NCBI GenBank assembly: GCA_964344235.1 | Contig: CAYFMJ010000001.1 | Span: forward strand, 88,664 to 152,663 | Reading direction: 5' to 3' | Length of the DNA stretch: 64,000 bases | DNA from: an uncultured Methanosarcinales archaeon | GTDB taxonomy: Archaea > Nanobdellota > Nanobdellia > Woesearchaeales > GW2011-AR9 | In this document: piece after piece, positions 2,357 through 50,358 of the stretch | How positions within the stretch are numbered: position 1 is the first letter of the stretch | Layout: every line of letters starts with the position of its first letter | Notes under the pieces: model-generated | Database searches by the model: none | Told to the model about the DNA's origin: nothing | The model's input: only the letters and a program-made list of their open reading frames with translations | Position numbers and translations under genes: made by a program

Positions 2357-3112
2357 ATGAATACAAAAATAAATCCGGAGGTTGCAGAGATCCTAGGAGC
2401 CTTTATAGGAGATGGGTGGCTTGAAAGCTCATTAGGTGCGATCTACATTACGGGTGATAAAACTGAGGATAAAGAGTATTATGATGCATTTTTAGGCCCT
2501 TTGTTTAGTGAACACTTTTCTCCCGTCACACCACAGCAATTCCCGTACTGGAATGTATATGGAATTGGTTCTTCTAAGAAAATAGCAATTGAGAAGTGCT
2601 TGAGTCTCGGTTTTCAACCAGGAAGTAAAGCACTCGTTGCAAAAATGCCAGACTTTATTATGAAAACACAAAATGTTGAGGTTAAGAAAGCTATTCTAAG
2701 GGGTATCTTTGACGCTGATGGATGTATATGGTTTGATAGATCAAGAGCCAAGACATCTAACGAATGGAAGAGAAAATATCATTATATTCCAATTATAGAA
2801 ATTTCCTCTTGTTCACAAAATTTATTACAACAAATGAAAGAAATCCTAACTACTTTTGGAATAGAATCACTTATTATACTAAAGAGTAAAGCGGGAAGAA
2901 AATTCAATAGGAATCGACATGATTCTTTCTCTTTAAAAATAAGGAAAATTGACCATGTTAAAAAATGGTTCAGTATTATTGGTTCTAGTAATTCAAGACA
3001 CCAAACGAGGTATGCTGTTTGGAAAAAATTCGGCTTTCTTCCGCCAAGGACAAATATTAACCAAAGAAAGCAAATTTTAGCGGGGAAATTAGATCCTAAG
3101 AGTTTCTATTAA
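2357..3112 (+). CDS. Free-standing double-motif LAGLIDADG homing endonuclease
   Basis: Two LAGLIDADG motifs: ILGAFIGDGWLE and ILRGIFDADGCIW. 251 aa. It has its own TATA box and is not embedded in an intein or an obvious intron. Confidence 0.8.
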   Translation: MNTKINPEVAEILGAFIGDGWLESSLGAIYITGDKTEDKEYYDAFLGPLFSEHFSPVTPQQFPYWNVYGIGSSKKIAIEKCLSLGFQPGSKALVAKMPDFIMKTQNVEVKKAILRGIFDADGCIWFDRSRAKTSNEWKRKYHYIPIIEISSCSQNLLQQMKEILTTFGIESLIILKSKAGRKFNRNRHDSFSLKIRKIDHVKKWFSIIGSSNSRHQTRYAVWKKFGFLPPRTNINQRKQILAGKLDPKSFY

Positions 3113-17048: not shown

Positions 17049-17461
17049 TGTTGTTGTAATAGTAGTTCTTTAATTTTTGTACTTTTATGTTTATGTGGTT
17101 TGTAGGGTTTTGCTCTCAAAACTTTCGGGTAAAGATGAAGAGGGAGAAGTTTCTCAGAAAGTTGTTTCTCTGTGATAGGATGATCATATCCTAAGAGAAT
17201 GATGTCTGGTTTCTTTTCTTCAATTATTTTGAAATGGTTGTCGTGATGTCCTAACGTGGCTTCATCCACTATTTGCAGGCTTTTGACAAGTTTCAGTCGC
17301 TCCTGCTCGTCAAAGATGGTTTCTTTTTGTTGGTCTGTTTTTGTTTTATCTCTTGCTACTACTACAACAAGTTTGTCAGCGTGTTGTTTCGCTTGCTGGA
17401 AGTAGTCGAGGTGTCCGAGGTGGAGTACATCGAATGTTCCAAAACACATTACGCTAGTCAT
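17045..17461 (-). CDS. Cytidylyltransferase-fold nucleotidyltransferase (archaeal PPAT/RibL-like)
   Basis: (H/T)xGH motif CFGTFDVLHLGH. 138 aa. Confidence 0.6.
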   Translation of the reverse strand: MTSVMCFGTFDVLHLGHLDYFQQAKQHADKLVVVVARDKTKTDQQKETIFDEQERLKLVKSLQIVDEATLGHHDNHFKIIEEKKPDIILLGYDHPITEKQLSEKLLPLHLYPKVLRAKPYKPHKHKSTKIKELLLQQQ

Positions 17462-18032
17462 TTTGAGCTATAAACCGCAGTAATAACGCTACTGTACGGT
17501 CCTCTTTAATCTGTTTGTTCAAACACATTTGTTCAACTTCATCAAACGTTTTCCACGTTGGTTCAATGATCTCGCCATGATCGAGATGTTGGCCTTTTGG
17601 ATGCTCTTCAAATTCTTCAATACGAAAGCAGAATAAATCCCAACGCATCGTTGCACCACAAGTAGATGTGTGGATATGTTTTACTTTCTTTGCAACGATT
17701 CCTGCTTCCTCTAAACATTCGGTAATGATTCTCTTTTCAGCAGCCTGTTCAATGTATTCTTGACCTTTCTCTAATGCTTCCTCATATTCGTCAAGTGTTT
17801 CGAATACTTTTCCACCAGGAATGCGATAATCATACCCCTTCTGGGCTGGCCGGTATTCATGAATCATAAGAATTTTGTTGTCTTTTACGATAAGAGCTCT
17901 TGTTCCAGGAGAACGATACGCCCATTCGTATTCTAGTGTTCGTGTCGGTTCTTTCATTAATTGTCTGCGAACACCTACTATTTTACCAGAATACACTTCT
18001 TTAGGTTCTTCTAAAGGAATTGGTTTAGTCAT
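17454..18032 (-). CDS. Nudix hydrolase (ADP-ribose pyrophosphatase-like)
   Basis: GGKVFE...AAEKRIITECLEEAGI Nudix-like box with an insertion. Confidence 0.55.
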   Translation of the reverse strand: MTKPIPLEEPKEVYSGKIVGVRRQLMKEPTRTLEYEWAYRSPGTRALIVKDNKILMIHEYRPAQKGYDYRIPGGKVFETLDEYEEALEKGQEYIEQAAEKRIITECLEEAGIVAKKVKHIHTSTCGATMRWDLFCFRIEEFEEHPKGQHLDHGEIIEPTWKTFDEVEQMCLNKQIKEDRTVALLLRFIAQND

Positions 18033-18034
18033 TT

Positions 18035-18283
18035 TTATTCTCCTCTTATCCTGTAGGCGTCAACAACTTCGCCGTTACGGAAGACAACGACCCCTCTGTC
18101 TGCAACCCCCTCGTATAACAATACTCTATCTTCTTCAACAACGTTTAGAAGACCAGGAATATTAACAGTTTTTGTTCTCTTGCCAACTTGTAAATCGATT
18201 GTGGTGGAGTAAGGCCAATTTTCACAACCGATAACAGTTCCATCAATTGTGTGTAATGCTATCCCGTGTCCTGCAAATGTCAT
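18035..18283 (-). CDS. Small beta-rich hypothetical protein
   Basis: 82 aa. Starts 3 nt after the upstream AsnB-Dph6 gene. No diagnostic motif. Confidence 0.3.
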   Translation of the reverse strand: MTFAGHGIALHTIDGTVIGCENWPYSTTIDLQVGKRTKTVNIPGLLNVVEEDRVLLYEGVADRGVVVFRNGEVVDAYRIRGE

Positions 18284-20334
18284 TTTTCTATTAATTCTGC
18301 CTCGCCAATTATTAATTTTCCGGAATGTTTTGAGTCCATAACTTTCTGTGTTCTTACAAGTTTAATTTTCTTGTGAAATAATGGGGCGTCTAATACCAGC
18401 GACTCAAATTCTCCGCCTTCCCCAGCAATGTTTAGAAATTGTTTTGCTTGGAGTTCTTGGAGAATTTCTTCATTAATTTCTTTACCTAACCACGATTCAT
18501 CCAAACCATCAGCTGCAACTGCTGTAATGATAACGTGGAAACCGCGTTGTATTACCTCTTTCATATGCTGCTCTTGGGATTTATGCCACAGGGGGGAGAA
18601 TATTTTTAATCCTAAGTTGTCACAAATCTTCTCTATTCTATCTCTCTGATATGTTGAGAATAAAGCGCCGGAGACGACACCTTCAATTTTGTGTTGTTCT
18701 TTTGCAATTTTTAATGCTGCTTCTAAATCTGCCAATTCTTTCTCTTTCTCACCTTTCGTAGGTACCTGAACGAGAGGAAGGCCCATTGCCTCTGCTTGGA
18801 GTTGAACTAGCTCTGTACCTGCAGATTGAAACATGTAAGAATATTCATTCTCCGATTTCAGATTGATTAGGCAGGTTAATTCATAATTTTGCTGATGCAT
18901 AATGTGTGCAGCGGAGAGTGAATCTTTACCTGAGGAGAAGAGAACACCAAGTTTCACGTTATGGGTAGGATAGAATTGTCGGAGGTATTGTGATTTTGAT
19001 TGTTTGTGTTGTTTTGCTAATTTGCCAAGTGCATTGTCTATTCTTGAACCGTATTGCGCTGCGGTTTTTTTACGATATGAGAATTGTTCTAGAATCCCTG
19101 AGTTGAGTGCGATGTCTCGTAGAATAATTTTTGTTGCTCCCCCATTTATTTTGTGTTGTGTTGGAATTTTAAGTGCGTAGTTGATGAGAGAGTGGTCTAA
19201 GAATGGTAGACGTAACTCTAGGTTATTATCCATCGTAAGAACATCGTCCCGGTAAAGGTCGCGTTCGTACATCTTTCGTAAGCCGGAAACACATTCCTGG
19301 TTAATGTTAGAGGATTTTTTATGACGCTCATAGCCGGCAAAGATTTCTTCACTTCCTAAGCCAGAGAAGATTACTTTACAGCCATCTTCTTTCGCTAGTT
19401 CACTCGCTAAGTAGAATGTTAACGCTACACCGACTTTCACAACGTTAGAGTCTTCGATTAAAGGAACTATTTTCTGGAGGTATTGGGGGAGGTCTTCCTG
19501 TTTTATGGTTTTGATTTTAAGATCAAGATTAAGTTCTTTCGCTACGTTTTGCGCTGCTGCTAAATCGGAAGGTGTGGCGGTGTCTGTGTCGAGAACAGCT
19601 GTGTAACAGGTGAAGTCATAGCCTTTTGTTTTGAAGTAATGTGCTAAGAACGTGGAGTCTATCCCGCCGGAGAAGAGAAGGCCGAATTTTTTATTTGGGA
19701 TGCGTTTCTGAATTGCATTGTGTAGTAATTGTTTTGTTGTTTGTTTTATGTTTTCATAATTATCTGTGTGTTCTGGTGTGTATTCAAAGAATGGTCTTTT
19801 TGTGATTGTCAGCTTTTTGTTTTTGACATCGTATGTGAGGATGCTGCGAGGGTTTAATTCGACAATATCAATGTAACCGAGTTTCTCTAATGCTTTCTTT
19901 TCTGATGCAAAGGCGAAAGAGTCGTTGTTGTATGCGTACCATAATGGTTTCACGCCAAGAATATCTCGAGCGAGTGTGATTGAGTTATTATTGTAATAGG
20001 CAAACGCAAAGACGCCATCAAGTTCTTCTATTTTTTCTGTATTAAATTTGTCAAGAAAATGAAGAAGAAGTTCGGCATCGTTTTGTGTGTTTAGGTTGTA
20101 TTTTGTATTCATTTCTTCCCAGTTATAGATTTCGCAGTTTGCAGTGAGGGTTCCTCCATTCTGAATTGGTTGAGGGATATGATTAATAACCGCATGCAAG
20201 GTATGGCCAAGAACGCCGTTTGGTAATTGAGTGATTTGAGAACCATCTTTTCCCCGATTTTTGAGGATGTCAAGAGCGGCAGCTACATGTTCCTTTGCTT
20301 GTACATGGTTAAAGACGCCAACGATGCCACACAT
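18280..20334 (-). CDS. Tri-domain fusion: class-II glutamine amidotransferase plus asparagine-synthetase-like PP-loop plus Dph6-like (diphthine-ammonia ligase, PF01902-type) PP-loop domain
   Basis: N-terminus MCGIVG (Ntn Cys). First PP-loop FSGGIDSTF at about aa 215. Second PP-loop VLFSSGKDS at about aa 455, followed by the Dph6/MJ0570 hallmarks SGALFSTYQRDRIE...PLW...GGEFESLVLDAP. Confidence 0.7.
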   Translation of the reverse strand: MCGIVGVFNHVQAKEHVAAALDILKNRGKDGSQITQLPNGVLGHTLHAVINHIPQPIQNGGTLTANCEIYNWEEMNTKYNLNTQNDAELLLHFLDKFNTEKIEELDGVFAFAYYNNNSITLARDILGVKPLWYAYNNDSFAFASEKKALEKLGYIDIVELNPRSILTYDVKNKKLTITKRPFFEYTPEHTDNYENIKQTTKQLLHNAIQKRIPNKKFGLLFSGGIDSTFLAHYFKTKGYDFTCYTAVLDTDTATPSDLAAAQNVAKELNLDLKIKTIKQEDLPQYLQKIVPLIEDSNVVKVGVALTFYLASELAKEDGCKVIFSGLGSEEIFAGYERHKKSSNINQECVSGLRKMYERDLYRDDVLTMDNNLELRLPFLDHSLINYALKIPTQHKINGGATKIILRDIALNSGILEQFSYRKKTAAQYGSRIDNALGKLAKQHKQSKSQYLRQFYPTHNVKLGVLFSSGKDSLSAAHIMHQQNYELTCLINLKSENEYSYMFQSAGTELVQLQAEAMGLPLVQVPTKGEKEKELADLEAALKIAKEQHKIEGVVSGALFSTYQRDRIEKICDNLGLKIFSPLWHKSQEQHMKEVIQRGFHVIITAVAADGLDESWLGKEINEEILQELQAKQFLNIAGEGGEFESLVLDAPLFHKKIKLVRTQKVMDSKHSGKLIIGEAELIEK

Positions 20335-20449
20335 AAGTGGTTAATTTGGTAGTATTTTTATAAAATTATGGGGTTGTTGCAAAGGAAGAAGCACAATCTA
20401 TAGGTCCAATGACACATAAGGATATAAGTTAAATTGATATCCAGAAAAT

Positions 20450-20683: not shown

Positions 20684-21781
20684 TTAATCAAGATGAATCT
20701 CTAACACGTCTTTATCTTTCAATGCATGTTTCAACATAACTCGCTGTGCAGGATGCTTTGCTGACTTGCCCCATACTCTTGCAAACTTGAAACGTTTGAC
20801 AAAATCTTTATGTGTTTTATTGCAAACATCTCGAATCGTAGAATTACGAGGGATGATTAACGGCTCTTTCATGTCTGCTTCTTTACGAGGTTCTTTCATG
20901 TAAATACGGATGAAGTCAAGTTTTTTGAAGATCTTTTCACGTAATTCTTTAATTCCTAAATCCTCATGTGTGCTAATTACTAAATCTGCGTTCAATTCTT
21001 TTTTGACTTTTGCAACTTGACCTGCTGTTGCTAAATCTGCTTTGGTGATACAAGTAATAGCAGGGACGTATTTCTTTTGACTGCCTAAGCAGTCAATGAA
21101 GTCATCAATGTCGATGGGGGAGCGAATAAGCACTTCTGCATTAACAATCTTAAATTGTTGCATGACTTTCCTGATGGTTTCATCGTCTGTACCAATTTCA
21201 ACGGTTTTACCAATATGGATTCCGCCCTGTCCTTTTTTCTTAATGTACACTTCTGGTTTAGTTTTATTCACCCGTATATTCGATTCCCATACTTCCCGCA
21301 GAATTGCTTGGTAATGTTCAGGAGTTGTGACGTCGACTACTATTAACACTAAATCGGCGTTTTGGATAACGGCGAGCACTTCTTTTCCTCTTCCTCTACC
21401 GGATGCGGCACCAGAAACTATTCCGGGAACGTCAAGAATTTGAATTTTTGCTTGTTTATATTCCATCATTCCCGGAACAACGGAAAGAGTGGTGAATGCA
21501 TAGGCACCGACCTCTGAGTCAGCTCCTGTTAATTTGTTAAGGAGGGTTGATTTTCCTGCTGAAGGAAATCCGAGCAATAAGACGGTTCCATCACCCGATT
21601 TTCGGACAGAATAGCCGTGGTCTGATCTTCCTGTTTTTTTAGAAACACGAGATTCTTGTTTTTGCTTCAGTTGGGCAATTTTCGCTTTAAGAATTCCAAT
21701 ATGGCCTTGCGTTGCTTTGTTATATTTGGTTTTTTTTATCTCGTCCTGGATTTCTTTGATTTGTTTATTATAATCGACCAT
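20684..21781 (-). CDS. DRG-family (Obg-like) GTP-binding protein with a C-terminal TGS domain
   Basis: N-terminal coiled-coil MVDYNKQIKEIQDEIKKTKYNKATQ. G1 GFPSAGKST. G3 DVPG. TGS-like C-terminus. Confidence 0.8.
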   Translation of the reverse strand: MVDYNKQIKEIQDEIKKTKYNKATQGHIGILKAKIAQLKQKQESRVSKKTGRSDHGYSVRKSGDGTVLLLGFPSAGKSTLLNKLTGADSEVGAYAFTTLSVVPGMMEYKQAKIQILDVPGIVSGAASGRGRGKEVLAVIQNADLVLIVVDVTTPEHYQAILREVWESNIRVNKTKPEVYIKKKGQGGIHIGKTVEIGTDDETIRKVMQQFKIVNAEVLIRSPIDIDDFIDCLGSQKKYVPAITCITKADLATAGQVAKVKKELNADLVISTHEDLGIKELREKIFKKLDFIRIYMKEPRKEADMKEPLIIPRNSTIRDVCNKTHKDFVKRFKFARVWGKSAKHPAQRVMLKHALKDKDVLEIHLD

Positions 21782-31711: not shown

Positions 31712-34213
31712 TTGATTATGGCAGTTTCAGTGCAAAATTGCTCCCGAACCATGTTGTTCTTAGTGTTTGGAATTTTACTAGCTACTGTTGCGTCTGCAAG
31801 TCCAAGTGTGCAGATTAATGAGTTAATGGCGATTAATGATAATTTTGATGTTGAGGATAATGGAAAGTCTCCAGATTGGTTTGAATTGTATAATTATGGT
31901 GAAGATAGTGTTGATTTAAAGGAATTTTATGTAAGTGATACTAAAAATAATATGATAAAGTTTCAAATTCAAGAAGAAGTTATTATTCCCCCGAAGGGAT
32001 ATCATGTTCTTGTAGCCGATGGGAAAAAAGGATACAACCATGTGGGGTTTAAATTAGGTGGGGATGGAGAGGAGTTATTACTTACTGCACCAGACGGAGA
32101 GACAATTATTGATTCTGTTGATTTTCCAAAGCAAGTTGCAGATGTTTCATATGGTAGAAGTATGGATGGGGGGATTTGGGGTTTTCTGGAGGAAGCAACG
32201 CCGGGAGAAGGAAATAGCGCTGTGTTGAAACTGAGCGAGTCGGATGAACCTTTCTTGAGTCACAAAGCTGGATTTTACGATGAAGCTATTGAATTAAAAG
32301 TTAGCTCTGTTGGAAACGTTTATTATACAACTGATGGGACCACGCCAAAGCAAAAAGAGGAGGACTTATACACTGAACCAATTGTGATTGACGAAACCAC
32401 AACGATTAGGATTATGGTGGTGGAAGAGGGGAGCCTTCCATCTAAAGTGGTGACAAGAACCTATTTCATTAATGAAGAATTTACACTCCCGGTTGTATCA
32501 TTTGTTTCCAACCCAGACAATTTCTTTAATGAGAATGACGGCTTGTTTAAACAATGGAGTGAGGAAGAAGCTGAAACTGTTGAGCCAGAGGAACATGCAC
32601 TTCATATGGAATATTTTGATGACGCATCGTTAGAATTCAAAATGACTGTTGATGCAAAGACCCATGGGTTTCATTCAAAGATTGATCCTGGCCCAATACC
32701 AAGAGCGTTTAGAATTTATGCAAGGGAAAAATATGGGCAGGACCGCATAGAGTATCCTTTGTTTGGAGAAGCATCCCTGCCAAGTTATAAACGAGTAGTC
32801 TTTCGGCCAGCGAGCGAGGATAAAATTTCAAACAGTGGAACACATTTTAGAGACCCGCTAGTGCATTCGATTGCTGAAAACATGGCTGTTGACACACAGG
32901 CGTATTCTCCAGTTATTGTGTTTATTAATGGCGAATATTGGGGGATCTATAACATAAGAGAGAGGTTGGATAAATATTACGTTTCTGATCATTATGGTGT
33001 TGAGCCAGAGGAAGTTAAGATAGCAGAAGGACAAGCCCCCCTTATGGGTCCAACAGAGGTGAATCCAACAGAAGAGGATTATGAAAAATGGATTAAAGAA
33101 AAGAAAAATCAAGCTGCAGTGGAGTATGGTTCCTTGTTTCTTGAAATTACAAACATGAAGTCCGATTCTCCAGAATTTGTCACGTTTGTGGAATCTTCTT
33201 TGGATGTGGATAGTCTTTTTGATTGGCATGCTTTACAGTTGTATAGCCATAACAATGATTGGGTGCACAACAGCAAGCGGTGGAAGGCCAGTGGGTTGTG
33301 GAAGTTTATGGTTTTTGACACGGATTCCAGTTTCGGTTTGCATTCAATCGGAATTGACAAAAATAATTTAGATCATTTCTTTAAAACGCCCAAGGAAGGT
33401 AATTACTATACTTCTATCTTTCCAACAATTATGAAGAATGACGCATTGCGAGAGAGGTTTTTGGTGCGGTTTGCTGATTTATTGAATAGTGATTTTAGAG
33501 AGGAAACCGTAGATAAAAAAATAGATTTCTTTGTTGAGTTGCTTGAGCCGGAAGTTGGCAAACATATTGCAAAATGGATTCCGGAAGATTCAGGCAATTG
33601 GCTTTGGACAAATAGTGTTGAAGAGCTGAGGCAATATGTTGACGGGCGGACCGAAGAGTTGTATGGATTTTTTGATGAATATTTTGAGGAGATTGATGGT
33701 ACGCACCCCGTTTCGGTGGGTGTTGAGTGTGGTGGGGAAGTACATGTTAATTCGATAATTGTTCAGGACGGGTTTGAAGGAGACGTTTTTAATATTTTGC
33801 AGTTTACGCCAAAGAACTTTGAAACGGAAGATTTTACCTCCATCAAAATACAGTCGAAGATCGATAAGCTGTGGTTGCAAGAGAAAGGATTAGTGAAGGA
33901 CGATGTTTCTATGTTCCGACATATTACGGAATGGGTTGAATTACCAACAACGATTTTGGAAGAAGATGGTTCTTTTGTATACTATGAATCGCAGACACCG
34001 GGCTTTAGTTATTTTATTATTGGGTCTAAGGAAAGGGTGGAGAGTCTAGAGGGGGAGGAAGAAGAGGCTACAGCAGATGAAGAAAGGGTGGAAGAAGATG
34101 TAGTTAATGTTGTGAAAAAAGCTTATGTGTATGAACCATGGCAGGGTTTAGTTGCTTTCGTTATACTGATCACAATTGTGTTCTTAGTAGCATACAACAA
34201 AAGAAGAAAGTGA
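31712..34213 (+). CDS. Secreted lamin-tail-domain (LTD) plus CotH-family protein with a C-terminal TM anchor
   Basis: Signal peptide. LTD signature INELMAINDN...DWFELYN. CotH-like core HFRDP...FINGEYWGIYNIRERLDKYY. Acidic stalk. C-terminal TM plus KRRK. Confidence 0.65.
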   Translation: MIMAVSVQNCSRTMLFLVFGILLATVASASPSVQINELMAINDNFDVEDNGKSPDWFELYNYGEDSVDLKEFYVSDTKNNMIKFQIQEEVIIPPKGYHVLVADGKKGYNHVGFKLGGDGEELLLTAPDGETIIDSVDFPKQVADVSYGRSMDGGIWGFLEEATPGEGNSAVLKLSESDEPFLSHKAGFYDEAIELKVSSVGNVYYTTDGTTPKQKEEDLYTEPIVIDETTTIRIMVVEEGSLPSKVVTRTYFINEEFTLPVVSFVSNPDNFFNENDGLFKQWSEEEAETVEPEEHALHMEYFDDASLEFKMTVDAKTHGFHSKIDPGPIPRAFRIYAREKYGQDRIEYPLFGEASLPSYKRVVFRPASEDKISNSGTHFRDPLVHSIAENMAVDTQAYSPVIVFINGEYWGIYNIRERLDKYYVSDHYGVEPEEVKIAEGQAPLMGPTEVNPTEEDYEKWIKEKKNQAAVEYGSLFLEITNMKSDSPEFVTFVESSLDVDSLFDWHALQLYSHNNDWVHNSKRWKASGLWKFMVFDTDSSFGLHSIGIDKNNLDHFFKTPKEGNYYTSIFPTIMKNDALRERFLVRFADLLNSDFREETVDKKIDFFVELLEPEVGKHIAKWIPEDSGNWLWTNSVEELRQYVDGRTEELYGFFDEYFEEIDGTHPVSVGVECGGEVHVNSIIVQDGFEGDVFNILQFTPKNFETEDFTSIKIQSKIDKLWLQEKGLVKDDVSMFRHITEWVELPTTILEEDGSFVYYESQTPGFSYFIIGSKERVESLEGEEEEATADEERVEEDVVNVVKKAYVYEPWQGLVAFVILITIVFLVAYNKRRK

Positions 34214-40647: not shown

Positions 40648-41850
40648 TTATGTGATCTGTAATGATTTTTCCAATAGTTCTCTCAGTTTTATAGTGAGGT
40701 TTTCTTCTAGAGGGCAGGTGATTTCTCGCGTTCTGCCATAACGACCTTTGGAAATTATTTTGGCGTTAATGATACCGAGCATGTCAAGTTCCGCTAGAAT
40801 GTCTGAGATCCGTCTCTGTGTAAGAACGTTGAAACTTGCTTTTTTACAAATAGAAGAGTACACATCATAAATTTCCCCCGTAAAAAAGCGACGTTTCTCG
40901 GGAGCGATAAGAAGTATTGAATAGAGAACTGTCTGAAATTGTTTTGGTTGACCTAAAGCTGCGCTTACGATTTTATCTGACTCTACTTTTTGTTCGGCTT
41001 CGTCAAGATGTTGGATTTCAATATTCGAAGAACCTTTGCGCTCAGCTAATTCTCCGGCAACTCGAAGTAGATCTATCGAGCGACGAACATCACCATGTTC
41101 ACGAGCGGCGTAGGCAGAGCATTTTTCGATGACTCCTACTTGAATAACGCTCTCTTGAAACGCTATAGCAGACCGTTTACGGAGAATATCTTGAATTTGG
41201 AGTGCATTATATGGAGGGAAGATAACTTCTTCCTCTGATAATGAAGATTTAACCCGAGGATCGAGGTTTTCTGCAAAAATGAGGTTGTTGGAAATCCCAA
41301 TAAGACAAATTTGCGAGCGACGAAGCTCCGCGTTGATTCTTGTTAAGTTATAGAGAATCTCATCCCCTATTTTTTTTGTTAGTTGATCGATTTCATCAAG
41401 TACAAGAAGAACAATTTGTTCTTGTTGATCAAGTAATTGGTAGAATGTACTATAGACTTCATCAGTGGGTAAGCCTGTTGAGGGAACTTCTTTACCAAAT
41501 TCTTTGATTAATTGGGCGAGTAAGCGGTATTCAGTATCGGCAACCCTTTTTAATTTGCAGTTGAGGTAGATTGGTTTAAGAGGAACTCTATTTTTTTCTG
41601 CTATCTCTGCCATGGAAGTGAGAATATGTTTCATAGAAAGGGTTTTGCCCGTTCCTGTTTTGCCATAAATGAAAAGGTTAGAAGGGCGTTCCATCCTCAA
41701 AGCTGGAGCAAGAATATTCGCGACCTCCTGAATTTGTTCTTCTCGAAAAAGAACGTTATCAGGCATATAGGATGAAAGAAGAGCTGATTTATCGTTGAAC
41801 AGAGAATCCTTTGCTAGAAAGTTTTCGAAAAAGTTACCTATTTGTACCAT
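40648..41850 (-). CDS. cdc6: Orc1/Cdc6 replication initiator
   Basis: AAA+ Walker A GKTGTGKT. Walker B LVLDEID. C-terminal winged helix. Adjacent to the AT-rich origin. Confidence 0.9.
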   Translation of the reverse strand: MVQIGNFFENFLAKDSLFNDKSALLSSYMPDNVLFREEQIQEVANILAPALRMERPSNLFIYGKTGTGKTLSMKHILTSMAEIAEKNRVPLKPIYLNCKLKRVADTEYRLLAQLIKEFGKEVPSTGLPTDEVYSTFYQLLDQQEQIVLLVLDEIDQLTKKIGDEILYNLTRINAELRRSQICLIGISNNLIFAENLDPRVKSSLSEEEVIFPPYNALQIQDILRKRSAIAFQESVIQVGVIEKCSAYAAREHGDVRRSIDLLRVAGELAERKGSSNIEIQHLDEAEQKVESDKIVSAALGQPKQFQTVLYSILLIAPEKRRFFTGEIYDVYSSICKKASFNVLTQRRISDILAELDMLGIINAKIISKGRYGRTREITCPLEENLTIKLRELLEKSLQIT

Positions 41851-42539
41851 ATAATCCCCTCGTTTTTTGCTAAATGTGGTAAGCGAATACCAGGAACCCC
41901 CTTATTTCCTGTGGAAACTTGTATTCTGCTTTTGTTTTGGGTAACAATTTTTCATGAATGATGTGTAGTGTTACCCAAATGAGTGTATTGGTGTTACCAA
42001 GACACCTTAATTTCTTATGGAAGTAGTTTAAATAGTTATTGCTGGATTAATGAGTAGTAACTAATAGGTGTTCTTGAAAATATTTTTTAGGAAAATTGTT
42101 TTTGAGTTAACGGAATTTGTTGTTGTGTTGTTCTTTTTGCTTTATTTTTTATCATTTATTTGTTATTTTATTGTTATAATTATATATTATATTATTATTT
42201 TCAATATAGAAATAATATAATAATAATAGAGAGCAAAGTGCTTGAATGAAAATTGAATTTTGTTTTTTGTTGTTGTAGTTGAGTTTCCATGTGAAATTAT
42301 TTCATTTATTATTATTATTGTTTAAGGTATGTAATAGTAGTAGTAGGGACGTGTATTATGCAACAAACAAACAGTCTGATTTTTTTCAAAATTACATTTT
42401 CCATAAGAAATGAAGGGGTGCTGCTTACTACACTAGCGTTTTCTACGACTATTTCTCTTTGTAGTGTAGGCAGACGGACTTTTTCTACTGAGTTTAGTAT
42501 ATAAAAACATTTAAATAGTTTTAAGAGGGTATTTCCAGC
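41851..42539. other. Chromosomal replication origin (oriC): mini-ORB boxes flanking an AT-rich DNA unwinding element
   Basis: ORB-like TTCCTGTGGAAAC at 41905-41918. Inverted pair tttcttatggaag (42011-42023) and ttccataagaaa (42397-42410). An 80-85% AT tract with tta/tag triplet runs at 42121-42340. Directly upstream of orc1/cdc6. Confidence 0.65.
42497..42509 (+). promoter_or_regulatory. TATA box (agtatataaaaac) for the 42540 gene
   Basis: About 30 nt upstream of the ATG. Confidence 0.35.
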
Positions 42540-43400: not shown

Positions 43401-44083
43401 AGAACTTTGACTTTACCAGGTTGGTTTTGGAAGATGTCTCCTTTCTCTAACATTTTTTCAAGCATCTTTTCTGTATCTGGCACTGTAGATTCAGCAATAA
43501 CGGTTTCTATTAACACTCCCTCTCCTTCGTCGAGCGTTTCAATAAGTTTTGCAATTTTTTCAAATGGCGGAATGTTTTCCGCTGGTTCTTGAATAATCTC
43601 TACGGAGGGTGTTGGTTTGGGAGTTTGTTGGGAAGGTTCCTCTGCTGTTTCTTTAGGAGGTTCTGTTACTTGTGTTGTTTGCTGTGTTGGCATTGTTTTT
43701 TGTAATTCCAATGAACGTAACTTTAACCATAAAGGATCAAGTTTTTTGATAATTTCTGGAGAAAGGTACTTTTCTTCGTTATATACTCTTACTTTCCCAA
43801 CAGCAAGTACGATGCTTCCAACAGTAAGGGCATCAAAGTGTTTGTTTTCCTCAAAAGAACGCGCAGTAAGAGTCGAGGTTCCGTCATCTAGAAGGAATGT
43901 TGTTATGGTTCCTGCTTTTTCTTTCTGGACAATTGTTGCAATAATATTAACACGGTATAATTTTTCACTGGTTTCTGTTAAAAGGTAATTATGTTCTTCC
44001 GCTTCCTGGACAAACGTTCCTGCCGTAATGTTCCGAATAGTTGTTTTACATGCAACGTGCCTTCTATATTTTGTTGTTTCCAT
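43397..44083 (-). CDS. OB-fold plus C-terminal winged-helix protein (RPA32/Stn1-like), translationally coupled to MCM
   Basis: Central OB-like beta region (YRVNIIATIVQKEK...VLAVGKVRVY). An acidic/Pro-rich linker. A C-terminal wH-like segment. Its start shares a nucleotide with the MCM stop. Confidence 0.45.
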   Translation of the reverse strand: METTKYRRHVACKTTIRNITAGTFVQEAEEHNYLLTETSEKLYRVNIIATIVQKEKAGTITTFLLDDGTSTLTARSFEENKHFDALTVGSIVLAVGKVRVYNEEKYLSPEIIKKLDPLWLKLRSLELQKTMPTQQTTQVTEPPKETAEEPSQQTPKPTPSVEIIQEPAENIPPFEKIAKLIETLDEGEGVLIETVIAESTVPDTEKMLEKMLEKGDIFQNQPGKVKVL

Positions 44084-46104
44084 TATAACCGCTGGATAAA
44101 GCCCCTCTTTGGTTCGAAGATGTCACCGGAGCGCCGAAGTTTTTCAAGCAATTCTTCAACTTTATCTTGTGGGATGTTTTTTTCTTGCGCTGCTTCGATG
44201 ATGTTTTCAACAGGAATAATTTTACTGGATAATTGCTCTTCCATCGCACTAATAATTTCTTTAATAGAACTAATACCTCCTCGTTGCGTAGCAGTGATTC
44301 TGCTGCTTAGTCTATCGATATCAATTTGTCCAGTTTCGGAATCTTTGGCAATTTGATTTAAACAATAGTCAACAAGCTCAATGGCTTTCTGTGCATCAAC
44401 TTTTGTTACTTTTTGTGCCAAGCGAATTTTGGCAGCAGCTTCAGCTAGTCTAACGAGCCCTTCCAATTGACGGGCGGTAATAGGAATACTTTTGACTCCA
44501 CTTTCATCTGAAATTCCAGAGTTACGCATTTTAACATAGTATTCTTTAATCTCTTCGATTGCTTCGTCAGTAATTTGTGGTTGAATTCTCTGACGAACAT
44601 AGGAAAAATATTTTCGTAGTAGCTCCGTTGGAATTTCAGACATACCTTTCTCAGGGTTTTTGTGTAGGCCAAGAATAAACGAAGCGGTTCGTTCATCTTT
44701 TTCCCGACTCGGCATGTCTTTTACTGGAAAAATGAGGTCAAACCGGTTAATTAATGTTGGAGGAAGGTTAATTTGGTTGGCAATTAAGTCGTAGGGGTCA
44801 AACCGGCCAAACTTTGGATTTGCTGCAGCAATAACAGTGGTTTCACAGCGTAAAGTTGCTTGGATATTTGCTTTAGAAACGCTCACGGTTTGCTGCTCTA
44901 ATGCTTCGTGTAGGGCGGAACGATCCTCTTTGGTCATTTTATCCATCTCATCAATAACTGCAAAGCCTTTATTTGCTAATACTAATGTTCCTGCTTCTAA
45001 ACTCCAGCCACCAAGGAATTCATCTTTGACGACACTTGCTGTTAGACCGGCAGCAGTTGCGCCTTTTCCTGAAGTGAACCTCGCTTTTGGAGCAACTTTT
45101 GTGATTCGTTTAAGAAGTTGTGATTTCCCTGAACCAGGATCTCCGATCAGAAGTACGTGCATATCCCCTCTTGTAATGACACCATCAGGACGGACTTTCC
45201 GACAACCACCTGCTAGTTGTAAAACAAGCGCTTCTTTGATTTTATCGTGCCCATAAATGGAAGGGGCGATGCTGGAAGAGATCATGTTAAGTGGATTTTC
45301 ACCGGCAGCAATTTCTTTGATTTGTTCCAAGTCTTTGTCAGAAATTTTCATATCAACGGAATCATCTTGCACTGGTTCAACGAAATTAGATTCCAAGATT
45401 AAATCGTATTTTGTTGCTTTCCCTCCAGAACGGAGAGTGATGGGAACTTCAGTTACCCAGCCGGAAAGAATAACTCTCGACCCAGGACTTGATTTCCGTT
45501 CTGAAATTGGAGACACAAGATCATCTTTAAGGAAGACGTTGATCCGTTTAGGTTGTGCTCCGTCTAACTCATCCGGTGCTTCTTCTAGCACTAAACCTTG
45601 GCCGTCAACAAGTTCTTTTGAAATTTCTTTGAACTTTCCTTTTCTACCGCAGCCACATCGTGTTGGTTCTTTGTATTTCTGATCTAACTGCAGGACGTTA
45701 AGAATATTACCGCAGGAAGGGCATTCAAACTTGGCAGCGGTTACATGGGGCCGTACATTAGATTTTTGCCGGACAATGCCTTCCATCCAGACAAATTTTT
45801 CAAGATGTTTACTTCGCACCTCGCTAATCAAAATTTTCTGTGACTCTGGCAGGTTTTTGAGCCTGACTGTGAATTTAGTGATTTTTTTTGGAAGGTCAAA
45901 TTCTTTGACTGCTATCTCTGCTGCTTTAAGAAGTTCTTGTGGGGCTTCCAGGAGTTCGTCTGTGATGTCGGGGTTGAATTTAAGAAGTTCTGCAAAGTCT
46001 AATACTAAATATGTTTGGCCTTTACGAACTGCTTCAAGAAGTTGTGGATGATAATTTTGTTCGATAAATTCTCTAAATACTTTAATTTGTTCGTCGACGT
46101 CCAC
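44083..46104 (-). CDS. mcm: MCM replicative helicase
   Basis: Zn finger CPSCGN...CGCG. Walker A GDPGSGKS. Walker B IDEMDKM. Arginine finger region. 673 aa, no intein. Confidence 0.9.
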   Translation of the reverse strand: MDVDEQIKVFREFIEQNYHPQLLEAVRKGQTYLVLDFAELLKFNPDITDELLEAPQELLKAAEIAVKEFDLPKKITKFTVRLKNLPESQKILISEVRSKHLEKFVWMEGIVRQKSNVRPHVTAAKFECPSCGNILNVLQLDQKYKEPTRCGCGRKGKFKEISKELVDGQGLVLEEAPDELDGAQPKRINVFLKDDLVSPISERKSSPGSRVILSGWVTEVPITLRSGGKATKYDLILESNFVEPVQDDSVDMKISDKDLEQIKEIAAGENPLNMISSSIAPSIYGHDKIKEALVLQLAGGCRKVRPDGVITRGDMHVLLIGDPGSGKSQLLKRITKVAPKARFTSGKGATAAGLTASVVKDEFLGGWSLEAGTLVLANKGFAVIDEMDKMTKEDRSALHEALEQQTVSVSKANIQATLRCETTVIAAANPKFGRFDPYDLIANQINLPPTLINRFDLIFPVKDMPSREKDERTASFILGLHKNPEKGMSEIPTELLRKYFSYVRQRIQPQITDEAIEEIKEYYVKMRNSGISDESGVKSIPITARQLEGLVRLAEAAAKIRLAQKVTKVDAQKAIELVDYCLNQIAKDSETGQIDIDRLSSRITATQRGGISSIKEIISAMEEQLSSKIIPVENIIEAAQEKNIPQDKVEELLEKLRRSGDIFEPKRGFIQRL

Positions 46105-46901: not shown

Positions 46902-47675
46902 ATGGAGTATACACATTTATTGCTACGATATGGAGAGATTTTTCTAAAAGGAAAGAATCGGAAAATCTTTGAGAAGCGGTTAGCGAAGAATATTAATTCT
47001 ATTACTGCCCATAGGCCAAAGGCAATGCGTTCTAGGATGTTTATGGAATATTTTGAAGAACATGAGGCGCTGAAGAGAGTATTTGGATTATTATCCTATT
47101 CCCCTGCGGTATTGGTGGAAAAAGCTGTCGAAGTTATTAAGAAAGAGGTGTTGAGATTTTTGAAGAATACTGGTGGAAAAACGTTTAAGATTGAGACAAA
47201 ACGATCTGATAAGTCTTTTCCGATACAATCTCCCGATTTTAATAGGCAAGTAGGGAAGTATGTTGAGAAGAATAGTCCTTTGACGTTTGATTTTTCTAAG
47301 TCCGATGTGGTTTTACAGATTGAAATTAATCAAGAAGGCGCGTTTTTGTTTTCTGAGGTTGTTGATTGTGTAGGTGGCTTGCCAACGGGCGTTGAAGGGA
47401 GTGCTGGATTGTTGGTTTCAGATGAGAATTCTATATTGGCAGGGTTATTGATGATGAAACGAGGGGTTTCAGTGTTTCCCTTTGGTACAGGAGATATTTC
47501 GCTGTTGCAGCAGTATAGTCCTGATGCGTTAACGTTGCGGGAAGAGAATGTCTGTGATGTTATGGTAGTTGGGGATTTATTTGGTTCTGGGAACTCGTAT
47601 GAAGGAGTTGTATTGAAACCGTTAGTTGGGTATTCTAAGAAAGGAGTGAGGGAAGAGTTGAAGAAGTATAGTTAG
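46902..47675 (+). CDS. ThiI-like THUMP-domain protein with a degenerate, truncated PP-loop
   Basis: ThiI-type N-terminus LLLRYGEIFLKGKNRKIFEKRL. The position where SGGxDS is expected reads SDENS, and the protein ends after about 90 aa of the PP-loop domain. Confidence 0.55.
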   Translation: MEYTHLLLRYGEIFLKGKNRKIFEKRLAKNINSITAHRPKAMRSRMFMEYFEEHEALKRVFGLLSYSPAVLVEKAVEVIKKEVLRFLKNTGGKTFKIETKRSDKSFPIQSPDFNRQVGKYVEKNSPLTFDFSKSDVVLQIEINQEGAFLFSEVVDCVGGLPTGVEGSAGLLVSDENSILAGLLMMKRGVSVFPFGTGDISLLQQYSPDALTLREENVCDVMVVGDLFGSGNSYEGVVLKPLVGYSKKGVREELKKYS

Positions 47676-48640
47676 TTGCCTACGTATTTTGAGTAGATAG
47701 AAAGTGCTTCTTCTTTTGAATCTGCTTTTATGAGTGCACGACCGTCTTTGAAGAGAGTGATATTTTTGAAGTGAAGTGCAATTGAGCCGTGTTGCACGTT
47801 GTCGATTTTTTCTAAGCGTTGTTTTACTTTTTCTAGGTTGATTGGTTTTCCTAACACTTGAAACCTGCCCGCACTACAGAAGCGTGTTACTCGCTGTTCA
47901 GGTTGTTCAAGATATTTGAAATCGTGTTCTTTCATTTTGTTAATTGTTAATTTTTTAATGGAAATGTTTTTTGTATCAACATAATGTAATGTTGGTTCAA
48001 CTGTTTGTTCTGTGATTATTCTAATTGCAAATTCAGTTTGTAATGAAGCAATTATGGTAGTGATTGTGTTTAATACGCCAACGGTATCACAGGTATCTAA
48101 ACCAGGCGTTTCTGTGATGAAATCTCTTATTGAAATTGTATTGGGAATGATGGGGAGAACGTAGCCAGATGTTTTGATAGCAGCGGCATAAATCCAAGGT
48201 TTGTTCTTTTTCCGAGAGTAATCGTCAATTAAGAACTTCGTTTGTAAGTTATCTGTACAATCGAGGATAAGGTTGTAGTTGTCTAGTACAGAAATATTTT
48301 GATTGTTAAGATGAAGGGTTTCTGACGTTATTTTTATGGTTGAATTAATTGCTTGTAATGTTTGTTTTGCGACGTGTGCTTTACTTTTGTTGATGTCGGC
48401 TTCGGTGAATACTGTTTGTCGTTGGAGGTTAGATTCTTCTACCAAGTCTCTATCAATGAGGAGAAGTGTACCAACACCTGCGCGTGCCAATAAGTCTGCA
48501 CAAACAGTACCAAGAGCGCCAACGCCTATAATGGCTACTTTAGCGTTGTTTATCTTTTGTTGGTTTTCTTTTCCCAGTACTAATTCTTGTCGTGCGTATC
48601 TCATTGTGCTAATTGTTGTTGTAATGTACAAGCGTTGCAA
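47672..48640 (-). CDS. E1-like ThiF/MoeB/UbaA family adenylyltransferase
   Basis: Rossmann motif IIGVGALGTVCADLLARAGVG...LIDRD. About 100 aa of extra C-terminal domain. Confidence 0.75.
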   Translation of the reverse strand: MQRLYITTTISTMRYARQELVLGKENQQKINNAKVAIIGVGALGTVCADLLARAGVGTLLLIDRDLVEESNLQRQTVFTEADINKSKAHVAKQTLQAINSTIKITSETLHLNNQNISVLDNYNLILDCTDNLQTKFLIDDYSRKKNKPWIYAAAIKTSGYVLPIIPNTISIRDFITETPGLDTCDTVGVLNTITTIIASLQTEFAIRIITEQTVEPTLHYVDTKNISIKKLTINKMKEHDFKYLEQPEQRVTRFCSAGRFQVLGKPINLEKVKQRLEKIDNVQHGSIALHFKNITLFKDGRALIKADSKEEALSIYSKYVGN

Positions 48641-50311: not shown

Positions 50312-50358
50312 CGTTAATAACATTTATAAACAATGGTTGTTTGTTTTTGAGTATACTT

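What the first reader, a model, noticed from the sequence alone, without database searches (positions are those of the whole stretch)
18280..20334. Fusion of glutamine amidotransferase/AsnB with a Dph6-like diphthine-ammonia ligase domain
A single 684-aa ORF carries an Ntn-type GATase (MCGIVG), an AsnB-like PP-loop (FSGGIDST) and a complete second PP-loop domain with the MJ0570/Dph6 hallmarks (SSGKDS, ...PLW, GGEFESLVLDAP). Known Dph6 enzymes use free ammonium. Fusion to a GATase suggests a glutamine-dependent, ammonia-channelling diphthamide synthetase, or another amidation of that family. This architecture does not correspond to the separately encoded archaeal Dph6 homologues I am aware of.
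Basis: partly seen in the sequence, partly recalled or inferred. Interest (0 to 1): 0.65.

Follow-up and report, generated by a model that had tools for sequence, protein, structure and literature searches.

The report
Known archaeal AsnB-like–Dph6 fusion enzyme
The 684-residue gene is a real three-domain archaeal diphthamide synthetase (amidotransferase domain, asparagine-synthetase-like ATP domain, Dph6 domain), but this fusion and the idea that it uses glutamine were published in 2012 and it occurs in hundreds of archaeal genomes, so what remains open is the role of the middle domain.

Summary
Window 18280-20334 (- strand) is one uninterrupted 684-aa ORF. It holds a class-II (Ntn) amidotransferase domain (residues 1-190), an AsnB-type PP-loop domain (196-455) and a complete Dph6 domain (461-684). 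The Dph6 part scores above the curated TIGR03679 cut-off and carries all Dph6 signature residues.

It is not a chimera. At least 315 full-length relatives share the architecture. They come from Woesearchaeota and other DPANN archaea, Nanohaloarchaea, Methanolobus/Methanohalophilus isolates and ANME lineages.

It is not new. De Crécy-Lagard et al. 2012 described this fusion and proposed glutamine-derived NH3 supply. NCBI already names these proteins diphthine--ammonia ligase.

What I add:
- The AsnB-like module is not a canonical asparagine synthetase. The essential Glu348 is never Glu in 395 relatives, the TTxRAS motif is lost, and about 90 C-terminal residues are missing.
- The glutamine-binding Arg49 is replaced by Leu.
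- A well-populated clade lacks the amidotransferase domain, and another has lost its catalytic residues. Both keep the AsnB-type PP-loop fused to Dph6.

The best reading is a Dph6 with a dedicated, optional ammonia-supply module. The role of the middle PP-loop domain remains open. Interest is low to moderate.

The parts
18280..20334 (-). Whole gene, 684 codons plus stop: GATase, AsnB-type PP-loop and Dph6 domains in one protein
   Evidence: the ORF listing. Pfam and NCBIfam domain hits. 100% coverage by more than 120 orthologue clusters. AF2 model with pLDDT 94.4 and pTM 0.90.
19765..20334 (-). Class-II (Ntn) glutamine-amidotransferase-like domain, residues 1-190. Cys2 nucleophile (20329-20331), NCE 66-68 and Asp86 are present. 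Leu46 (20197-20199) replaces E. coli AsnB Arg49.
   Evidence: PF13537 and PF13522. Alignment to E. coli AsnB. Foldseek match to 1ct9 and 6gq3.
18970..19749 (-). AsnB-type PP-loop (ATP pyrophosphatase) domain, residues 196-455. SGGIDS 222-227 (19654-19671), Lys402 and Lys423 are kept. The TTxRAS motif is VKVGVA, Glu348 is Leu326 (19357-19359), and about 90 C-terminal AsnB residues are absent.
   Evidence: PF00733. NF006949 covers profile positions 1-472 of 554 and scores below its cut-off. Residue tables.
18955..18969 (-). Short linker of about 5 residues (456-460) between the AsnB-type domain and the first strand of the Dph6 domain
   Evidence: Domain limits. AF2 secondary structure shows helix 447-452 followed by strand 461-465.
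18283..18954 (-). Dph6 (diphthine--ammonia ligase) domain, residues 461-684. PP-loop SSGKDS 467-472 (18919-18936), SY 499-500, GEKEKE 528-533, YQ 562-563, PLW 581-583 and GEGGEFE 638-644 (18403-18423).
   Evidence: PF01902 4e-61. TIGR03679 265 bits against a cut-off of 197. phmmer to PH1257 and PF0828 at 1e-53. Foldseek TM 0.93, rmsd 1.4 Å to 3rk1.
20353..20364 (-). TATA-box-like TTTATAAAAATA ending 18 nt upstream of the ATG. It suggests the gene has its own archaeal promoter and a very short or absent leader (inference only).
   Evidence: Upstream sequence read directly.

Best explanation
The gene encodes the organism's diphthine--ammonia ligase (Dph6), the enzyme that finishes diphthamide on archaeal EF2, built as a three-domain protein.

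Shown: the domain order GATase, AsnB-type PP-loop, Dph6; intact Dph6 motifs; conservation of the architecture across many archaea.

Inferred with high confidence: the C-terminal domain adenylates the diphthine carboxylate with ATP and amidates it, as yeast Dph6 does with ammonium.

Inferred with moderate confidence: the N-terminal Cys-nucleophile amidotransferase hydrolyses an amide donor. Glutamine is the likely donor, although the usual carboxylate-binding Arg is missing. The NH3 is released into the AsnB-type tunnel, so amidation of diphthine does not depend on free NH3.

The AsnB-type PP-loop domain no longer makes asparagine. It has lost the essential Glu348, the TTxRAS motif, Lys376 and the C-terminal region. 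It is still an ATP-binding domain packed rigidly against Dph6. It most likely couples or relays ammonia to the Dph6 site, and possibly senses ATP.

The GATase is an accessory. Sister clades have deleted or inactivated it and presumably use free NH3.
For: Dph6 identity:
- TIGR03679 scores above its equivalog cut-off. The paralogous DUF71 families PAB0415 and TTX_0299 score far below theirs.
- All residues listed as Dph6-specific in PMC3541065 (PF0828 S44, Y45, E78, Y103, Q104, A149, E183, E186, E188) are present in the alignment.
- Most of them are invariant or nearly invariant among 74 fusions.
- The fold matches PF0828 with TM 0.93.
- In the complete genomes of M. mahii and M. zhilinae, which carry the fusion, only one DUF71 homologue exists. 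There the fusion must be the Dph6.

Functional coupling:
- The fusion is conserved from DPANN archaea to Methanosarcinales and ANME.
- The linker is about 5 residues.
- AF2 gives pTM 0.90 for the three domains and 0.85 for a GATase-less relative.

The GATase is probably active and coupled to the middle domain:
- Cys1 is present in 309 of 315 fusions, Asn74 in 314, Asp98 in 315.
- The interface and tunnel-gate equivalents of human Glu-414, Arg-416 and Asp-405 (query E373, R375, D364) are at least 86% conserved when a GATase is present. They are relaxed to 13-40% in GATase-less proteins (residue roles from PMC6748925 and PMC11615228).

Not an Asn synthetase:
- The Glu348 position is never Glu in 395 relatives.
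- Human E364A and E364Q are inactive and T336I is nearly inactive. The family carries Leu and Val at those positions.
- The AsnB model PRK09431 scores 228 bits against a cut-off of 499.
Against: - Arg49 (human Arg-48), the residue that contacts the glutamine substrate, is Leu in 310 of 315 fusions. Glutamine use is not assured.
- GATase-less proteins (44 sequences; loci L002-L006 have no GATase gene within 8 kb) and proteins with a dead GATase (ANME-1-like loci) keep the AsnB-type PP-loop, Lys402/Lys423 and the AAQYGS motif fully conserved. A mere ammonia conduit should decay once the GATase is gone, so the middle domain probably has an ATP-dependent role of its own.
- Stand-alone GATase+AsnB-like proteins of the same subfamily exist without a neighbouring Dph6 gene.
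- I could not inspect model coordinates. No tunnel from the AsnB-type site to the Dph6 site has been shown.
- No biochemical data exist for any member.
Confidence: 0.55

Rival explanations
1. Two-PP-loop enzyme. The AsnB-type domain is a catalytically active, obligate partner of Dph6 with its own ATP-dependent reaction. That reaction could be adenylation or amidation of a carboxylate other than aspartate, possibly on EF2 or on the diphthine precursor, or a substrate-handling step. The GATase is an optional add-on.
For: - In 44 GATase-less proteins the PP-loop Ser and Asp and Lys429 are 44/44 and Lys449 is 42/44.
- The AAQYGS motif is kept at 87-100%.
- Overall conservation of the middle domain in GATase-less proteins (0.51) equals that in full fusions (0.50-0.51).
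- Two of the three acidic residues that bind the substrate's amino group in ASNS are kept (D351 as D/E, D384), and so is Arg387. The Glu that contacts the alpha-carboxylate is replaced by a hydrophobic residue.
- The same subfamily exists as stand-alone GATase+PP-loop proteins.
Against: - No second amidation or adenylation step is known in archaeal diphthamide synthesis (Dph2, Dph5, Dph6; PMC6143161).
- The Dph6 domain already has every residue needed for the known reaction.
- No candidate substrate is indicated by gene neighbourhood.
Confidence: 0.25
2. Plain bifunctional protein. A genuine, if divergent, glutamine-dependent asparagine synthetase is fused to Dph6 with no ammonia transfer between them.
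For: - TIGR01536 (asparagine synthase, glutamine-hydrolysing) is matched just above its cut-off, 279 against 267 bits.
- Cys1, Asn74, Asp98, the PP-loop, Lys429, Lys449, Asp384 and Arg387 are conserved.
- The fold matches AsnB with TM 0.80.
- JGI annotates some members as asparagine synthase.
Against: - Glu348 is never present. The corresponding human E364A and E364Q variants are inactive, and T336I is nearly inactive.
- Arg49 is lost, the C-terminal ~90 residues are absent, and PRK09431 scores far below its cut-off.
- Repeated loss or inactivation of the GATase while the PP-loop-Dph6 unit is kept, and conservation of the fusion across distant archaea, argue for a functional link.
Confidence: 0.12
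3. Assembly or annotation artefact: two adjacent genes joined by a sequencing or assembly error.
For: None found. The source is a metagenome-type archaeal contig, so the question was worth asking.
Against: - The reading frame is continuous.
- 315 three-domain relatives come from independent assemblies, including cultured Methanolobus bombayensis DSM 7082 and a complete Nanosalina chromosome.
- The junction is conserved and short.
Confidence: 0.01

Closest known systems
AsnB-DUF71 fusion proteins of Methanohalophilus mahii, Methanosalsum zhilinae and Ca. Nanosalinarum (de Crécy-Lagard et al. 2012, Biol Direct 7:32)
   Same: They have the same three-domain order (GAT-II, Asn_synthase PP-loop, DUF71/Dph6) and the same proposed role of NH3 supply from glutamine. 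Methanosarcinales and Nanohaloarchaea members retrieved here (L029-L034, L059, L070, L080) align over residues 1-651 to 1-684 at 43-48% identity. They share Leu at the Arg49 position and a non-Glu residue at the Glu348 position.
   Different: The window protein is a Woesearchaeota-type orthologue. At the Glu348 position it has Leu, where the Methanolobus group has Ser. None of these proteins has been characterised biochemically.
Stand-alone archaeal Dph6 (Pyrococcus PF0828, PDB 3RJZ/3RK0/3RK1; PH1257, PDB 2D13)
   Same: Residues 461-684 match at 1e-53, 40-45% identity, TM 0.93 and rmsd 1.4-1.6 Å. The PP-loop and all Dph6 signature residues are present.
   Different: The Pyrococcus proteins are about 220-237 aa long with no N-terminal modules.
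Yeast Dph6 (YLR143W)
   Same: It has a DUF71 catalytic domain and performs ATP-dependent amidation of diphthine, with ammonium as the nitrogen source (PMC5354562). It is also fused to a module proposed to relate to NH3 (two RidA/YjgF-like domains; PMC3541065).
   Different: The accessory domains in yeast are C-terminal and unrelated to AsnB.
Asparagine synthetase B (E. coli AsnB, PDB 1CT9; human ASNS, PDB 6GQ3)
   Same: Residues 1-455 have the same two-domain fold (TM 0.76-0.80). Shared features are the Cys1 nucleophile, Asn74/Glu76/Asp98, the SGGxDS PP-loop, Lys429/Lys449 and the interface residues Glu-414 and Arg-416.
   Different: Arg49 is Leu, Gly75 is Cys, TTIRAS is VKVGVA, Glu348 is Leu and Lys376 is Gly. 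About 90 C-terminal residues are missing, and PRK09431 scores below its cut-off.
AsnB-fold enzymes with other acceptors (beta-lactam synthetase 1JGT/1MBZ, carbapenam synthetase 1Q15, TsnB9 7YLZ)
   Same: They share the GATase-like plus PP-loop fold and show that the AsnB scaffold is reused for other acyl-adenylate chemistry.
   Different: Identity is only 15-20%. Beta-lactam synthetase and carbapenam synthetase have dead GATase domains (from my own knowledge, not tested here). None of them is fused to Dph6.

Membership tests
Dph6 / diphthine--ammonia ligase (PF01902 + PF28410; TIGR03679) | Profile match above the curated cut-off, and better than the paralogous DUF71 subfamilies | tested here: met
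   TIGR03679 scores 265.4 bits against a cut-off of 197.3. PAB0415_fam scores 73.5 against 250 and TTX_0299 31.5 against 250. PF01902 matches at 4e-61.
Dph6 / diphthine--ammonia ligase (PF01902 + PF28410; TIGR03679) | PP-loop (SGGKDS-type) and the Dph6-specific residues S44, Y45, E78, Y103, Q104, A149, E183, E186, E188 (PF0828 numbering, PMC3541065) | tested here: met
   SSGKDS 467-472, S499/Y500, E533, Y562/Q563, Ala at the A149 position, and E639/E642/E644. Most are invariant or nearly invariant in 74 fusions; Y500 and the A149-equivalent Ala are in neither conservation list.
Dph6 / diphthine--ammonia ligase (PF01902 + PF28410; TIGR03679) | Fold of PF0828/PH1257 | tested here: met
   Foldseek gives TM (target-normalised) 0.93-0.94 and rmsd 1.4-1.6 Å.
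Dph6 / diphthine--ammonia ligase (PF01902 + PF28410; TIGR03679) | Genome also encodes Dph2, Dph5 and an EF2 with the target His, and this is the only Dph6 | tested here: inconclusive
   None of these genes is among the window's ORFs scanned between positions 27 and 50311. The rest of the genome is not available. In M. mahii and M. zhilinae the fusion is the only DUF71 homologue.
Dph6 / diphthine--ammonia ligase (PF01902 + PF28410; TIGR03679) | ATP-dependent amidation of diphthine on EF2 | not testable with these tools
   This needs biochemistry.
Asparagine synthetase B (glutamine-hydrolysing; TIGR01536 / PRK09431) | Profile match above the curated cut-off | tested here: inconclusive
   TIGR01536 scores 279.3 against 267.1, so it barely passes. 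NF006949 (PRK09431) scores 227.8 against 499, so it fails.
Asparagine synthetase B (glutamine-hydrolysing; TIGR01536 / PRK09431) | Synthetase-site Glu348 (human Glu-364), required for activity | tested here: not met
   The window protein has Leu326. No Glu is found at this position in 395 relatives. Human E364A and E364Q are inactive (PMC6748925).
Asparagine synthetase B (glutamine-hydrolysing; TIGR01536 / PRK09431) | TTxRAS motif (E. coli 321-326; human Thr-336...Arg-339) | tested here: not met
   The motif is VKVGVA at 299-304. Human T336I almost abolishes activity.
Asparagine synthetase B (glutamine-hydrolysing; TIGR01536 / PRK09431) | PP-loop SGGxDS and Lys449 (human Lys-466) | tested here: met
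   SGGIDS 222-227 and Lys423 are present. Lys449 is conserved in 306 of 315 fusions.
Asparagine synthetase B (glutamine-hydrolysing; TIGR01536 / PRK09431) | Full-length C-terminal domain (about 553 aa protein) | tested here: not met
   The AsnB-like part ends at about residue 455 and matches profile positions 1-472 of 554.
Class-II (Ntn) glutamine amidotransferase domain | N-terminal Cys nucleophile directly after Met, the oxyanion Asn74/residue 75 backbone, and Asp98 | tested here: met
   The protein starts MCGIVG. N66, E68 and D86 are present. Cys1 is found in 309 of 315 fusions, Asn74 in 314 and Asp98 in 315.
Class-II (Ntn) glutamine amidotransferase domain | Arg that binds the glutamine substrate (AsnB Arg49, human Arg-48) | tested here: not met
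   The window protein has Leu46, in the motif GHTLH aligned to AHERL. Leu is found in 310 of 315 fusions and is followed by a nearly invariant His. The role of Arg-48 is taken from PMC6748925.

The most novel reading that the evidence does not exclude
In a large set of archaea, diphthamide is finished by a two-PP-loop enzyme. A neofunctionalised AsnB-type adenylating domain that cannot make asparagine is an obligate, catalytically active partner of Dph6. It is retained even where the amidotransferase domain has been deleted or inactivated. It would carry out an as yet unknown ATP-dependent step, or activate or hand over the substrate, rather than simply relaying glutamine-derived ammonia.
Probability: 0.25. 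Interest if true: 0.55.

Novelty: already known. Interest (0 to 1): 0.3.

Why it matters
Diphthamide on EF2 helps maintain translational fidelity, and its last step has only been reconstituted with the yeast enzyme and free ammonium. If the archaeal fusion channels glutamine-derived NH3 to a protein-bound carboxylate, it would be an amidotransferase acting on a macromolecular acceptor through two stacked PP-loop domains. That would answer the question a reviewer of the 2012 paper raised: which PP-loop domain uses the NH3, and what does the AsnB-like domain do.

The residue-level results here sharpen that question and give a clear mutational plan. The results are the missing Glu348 and Arg49, the GATase-less and dead-GATase clades, and the selective relaxation of GATase-interface residues. 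The architecture and the basic hypothesis are already published and annotated, so the finding itself is not a discovery.

Tried and rejected
- Assembly chimera: rejected.
- Operon or neighbourhood link to diphthamide genes: none. An all-against-all comparison of ORFs in 79 loci found only lineage-specific synteny, with a DRG GTPase upstream and a RibL-like gene downstream. No dph2, dph5 or EF2 gene lies among the window's ORFs scanned between positions 27 and 50311.
- The 82-aa ORF that overlaps the gene's stop codon (18035-18283) has no Pfam hit and no homologue in any related locus, so it is not part of the system.
- The search with the apparent stand-alone AsnB-like protein P0151 was uninformative because that entry is a contig-end partial of a fusion. 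P0338 is also cut by a contig end. Genuine stand-alone forms had to be verified one by one.
- The listing of cluster members returned almost no names for divergent members.
- The afdb50 fold library was unavailable.
Only pLDDT and pTM could be used.
- A neighbour-joining tree of the PP-loop+Dph6 region was star-like. It shows only that GATase-less forms occur in several places, with two small clades.
- Rfam and tRNA scans of the window found nothing.
- Literature searches for any biochemical study of a glutamine-dependent Dph6 found none beyond the 2012 paper.
Full report
**1. Observation**

The window holds a single ATG-started ORF at 18280..20334 on the minus strand. It is 684 aa long and begins MCGIVG. 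Base composition there (G+C 0.395) is the same as in the rest of the window.

Pfam finds three domains:
- GATase_7/GATase_6, residues 41-150.
- Asn_synthase, residues 201-343 plus a second stretch (4e-42).
- Diphthami_syn_2, residues 461-669 (4e-61).

NCBIfam gives TIGR03679 'Dph6_archaeal' at 265 bits (cut-off 197) and TIGR01536 'asn_synth_AEB' at 279 bits (cut-off 267). The AsnB model PRK09431 reaches only 228 of the 499 bits required, and the match stops at profile position 472 of 554.

**2. Not a chimera, and not rare**

The identical protein is already in public collections on a 412-kb contig. More than 120 clusters at 62-73% identity cover the whole query with the same domain set. They are mostly named 'diphthine--ammonia ligase' from Candidatus Woesearchaeota or Nanoarchaeota MAGs.

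A search of 1.8 billion cluster representatives gave diverse full-length relatives down to about 31% identity. The 79 loci kept include:
- Woesearchaeota, Nanoarchaeota, Iainarchaeia/Diapherotrites and Altiarchaeota.
- Nanohaloarchaea, including Nanosalina J07AB43 and the complete chromosome of Nanosalina VS9-1.
- The cultured Methanolobus bombayensis DSM 7082, other Methanolobus, Methanohalophilus sp. RSK and Methanomethylovorans.
- ANME-3, ANME-1/Methanophagales and Syntrophoarchaeum.

Each locus has exactly one gene with these domains. The window itself is archaeal. It encodes PCNA, PolD DP1/DP2, Cdc6/Orc1, MCM, TBP, TFE, Hjc and aIF2-beta.

**3. Already described**

De Crécy-Lagard et al. 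2012 (PMC3541065) identified DUF71/PF01902 as Dph6. [quoted passage not shown] They proposed that the GAT-II domain provides NH3 to both PP-loop domains.

One reviewer of that paper asked which PP-loop domain uses the NH3 and what the AsnB-like PP-loop catalyses. Their Table S1 lists a single DUF71 homologue in M. mahii and M. zhilinae, so there the fusion is the only Dph6.

I found no later paper that tests the idea. Yeast Dph6 is reported to use ATP and ammonium (PMC5354562).

**4. The Dph6 domain is complete**

Residues 462-682 align to Pyrococcus PH1257 and PF0828 at 1e-53. The residues given as Dph6-specific in the 2012 paper all have their counterparts: S499/Y500, E533, Y562/Q563, Ala at the A149 position, and E639/E642/E644. 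Most are invariant or nearly invariant in 74 fusions. In the AF2 model this domain superposes on PF0828 with TM 0.93 and rmsd 1.4 Å.

**5. The AsnB-like module is not an ordinary asparagine synthetase**

I aligned the family to E. coli AsnB (taken from NC_000913) and counted residues in 315 three-domain, 36 GATase+PP-loop and 44 PP-loop+Dph6 proteins.

Kept:
- Cys1 (309 of 315), Asn74 (314), Glu76 (311) and Asp98 (315).
- The PP-loop Ser and Asp, Asp384 and Arg387.
- Lys429 (313) and Lys449 (306).

Changed throughout the family:
- Arg49 is Leu (310 of 315), followed by a nearly invariant His.
- Gly75 is mostly Cys.
- TTIRAS is V-K-V-G-V-A.
- Glu348 is Leu or another non-acidic residue, with no Glu in 395 sequences.
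- Lys376 is Gly.
- The last ~90 residues of AsnB are absent.

The same holds in every lineage among the 79 genome loci.

The roles of these residues come from work on human ASNS:
- Arg-48 is the residue placed to contact glutamine.
- Glu-364 (E. coli Glu348) is required, since E364A and E364Q are inactive.
- T336I almost abolishes activity.
- Lys-466 is essential (PMC6748925).
- Ser-362 and Glu-364 lie at the synthetase end of the ammonia tunnel.
- Asp-405, Glu-414 and Arg-142 form the gate network (PMC11615228).

The module therefore looks like an AsnB scaffold that still binds ATP and still has a nucleophilic GATase. It has lost the residues needed to make beta-aspartyl-AMP and the usual glutamine carboxylate anchor.

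**6. Variants that bear on the mechanism**

(a) A clade of about 28 clusters (P0166, P0373-P0398; 465-501 aa), plus scattered others, has only the AsnB-type PP-loop and Dph6 domains. In loci L002-L006 the upstream gene is divergent, and no GATase gene lies within 8 kb. Six or seven further cases appear among the species genomes.

(b) An ANME-1-like group keeps the GATase fold but has Thr, Tyr or Ser for Cys1, Asp for Asn74 and Ser for Asp98.

(c) Stand-alone GATase+PP-loop proteins of the same subfamily are real. They end at a stop codon inside contigs and have no Dph6 gene nearby.

(d) Comparing conservation classes gives a clear split. The equivalents of the GATase-interface residues (query E373 = human Glu-414, R375 = Arg-416, D364 = Asp-405, plus K300 and R211) are 86-100% conserved where a GATase is present. 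They fall to 13-40% in GATase-less proteins. The PP-loop, Lys402, Arg406 and the AAQYGS motif stay at 87-100%. Mean conservation of the middle domain is the same in both classes (0.50-0.51).

From this I infer two things. In the window's class the GATase is functionally coupled to the middle domain, as in AsnB. The middle domain also has a selected, ATP-site-dependent role that does not depend on the GATase.

**7. Structure prediction**

With a 74-sequence alignment, AF2 gives mean pLDDT 94.4 and pTM 0.90 for the 684 residues. A helix at 447-452 runs almost directly into the first Dph6 strand at 461-465. A GATase-less relative gives pLDDT 92.5 and pTM 0.85. This points to a rigid arrangement of the domains.

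No PDB entry covers all three domains.

**8. Context**

In close relatives the gene order is DRG-type GTPase, then the fusion gene, then a RibL-like cytidylyltransferase. In the window an 82-aa ORF and a NUDIX gene (17454-18283) are inserted between the fusion gene and the RibL-like gene, and they have no counterpart elsewhere. No diphthamide-related neighbour is conserved. A TATA-like TTTATAAAAATA lies 18 nt upstream of the ATG.

**9. Conclusion**

The protein is a member of an already described and widely annotated family of three-domain archaeal Dph6 enzymes.

The most likely mechanism is ATP-dependent amidation of diphthine by the C-terminal domain. NH3 would be supplied by the N-terminal amidotransferase through the AsnB-type domain, which no longer makes asparagine. 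Confidence in the Dph6 role is high. Confidence in glutamine-derived NH3 delivery to the Dph6 site is moderate.

The main rival is that the middle PP-loop domain has a catalytic role of its own (about 0.25). Novelty: already known. Interest: about 0.3.

Noticed in passing
window 17454-18283 (- strand): An 82-aa ORF (18035-18283) has its ATG overlapping the stop codon of the Dph6 fusion gene by 4 nt. It has no Pfam hit. Together with a NUDIX gene (17454-18032) it sits between the fusion gene and the RibL-like gene. Close relatives have the RibL-like gene directly downstream, and neither inserted ORF has a homologue in 79 related loci, so this looks like a lineage-specific insertion.
   Followed up: partly
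window 20684-21781 (- strand); loci L013-L019, L051, L066, L084; L019:40-3153: A DRG-type (TGS-domain) GTPase lies just upstream of the fusion gene in the window. In about ten Woesearchaeota-type loci it lies upstream on the same strand, usually immediately upstream. In L019 it is fused in frame to the Dph6 fusion as a 1037-aa ORF that lacks the first ~36 GATase residues, including Cys1. This may be a real four-domain protein or a MAG error.
   Followed up: partly
loci L002-L006, L076, L079, L082, L083, L085, L087; proteins P0166, P0373-P0398: A well-populated Woesearchaeota clade encodes AsnB-type PP-loop + Dph6 proteins of 465-501 aa with no GATase domain and no GATase gene nearby. I did not find this architecture mentioned in the passages of the 2012 paper that I read.
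   Followed up: yes
loci L052, L054, L057, L061, L062, L068, L069 (ANME-1/Methanophagales-like and 'Halobacteria' MAGs): These three-domain proteins have a degenerate GATase domain. Cys1 is Thr, Tyr or Ser in four of them, Asn74 is Asp, and Asp98 is Ser in five (a gap in the other two). The two PP-loop domains stay intact.
   Followed up: partly
window 41851-42539, next to Cdc6/Orc1 (40648-41850, -): This AT-rich intergenic region has 37-nt inverted repeats (41986-42022 and 42399-42435, containing TTCCATAAGAAAT) flanking 376 nt. G+C of the 42-44 kb bin is 0.347. PolD DP1/DP2 lie on one side and MCM (44083-46104) lies nearby. It looks like an archaeal replication origin with ORB-like elements.
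   Followed up: partly
window 50290-55209, 55353-57920, 57917-58987 and about 59007 to the window end (+ strand): This is a run of very large ORFs: 1639 aa, 855 aa, 356 aa, and one of at least 1664 aa that runs off the window. They lie in a region of strong positive GC skew. I did not examine them.
   Followed up: no
window 31712-34213 (+): An 833-aa protein combines a lamin-tail domain, Fn3-associated/CHB_HEX_C domains and a CotH kinase domain. This is an unusual combination for a DPANN archaeon.
   Followed up: no
window 46902-49533: This cluster holds a THUMP/ThiI-ferredoxin-like protein, a ThiF-family E1-like protein and a PP-loop ATP_bind_3 protein. It looks like a tRNA thiolation module.
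   Followed up: no
window 2357-3112 (+): A free-standing LAGLIDADG_3 homing-endonuclease-like ORF of 251 aa lies upstream of an RNase J-like gene.
   Followed up: no
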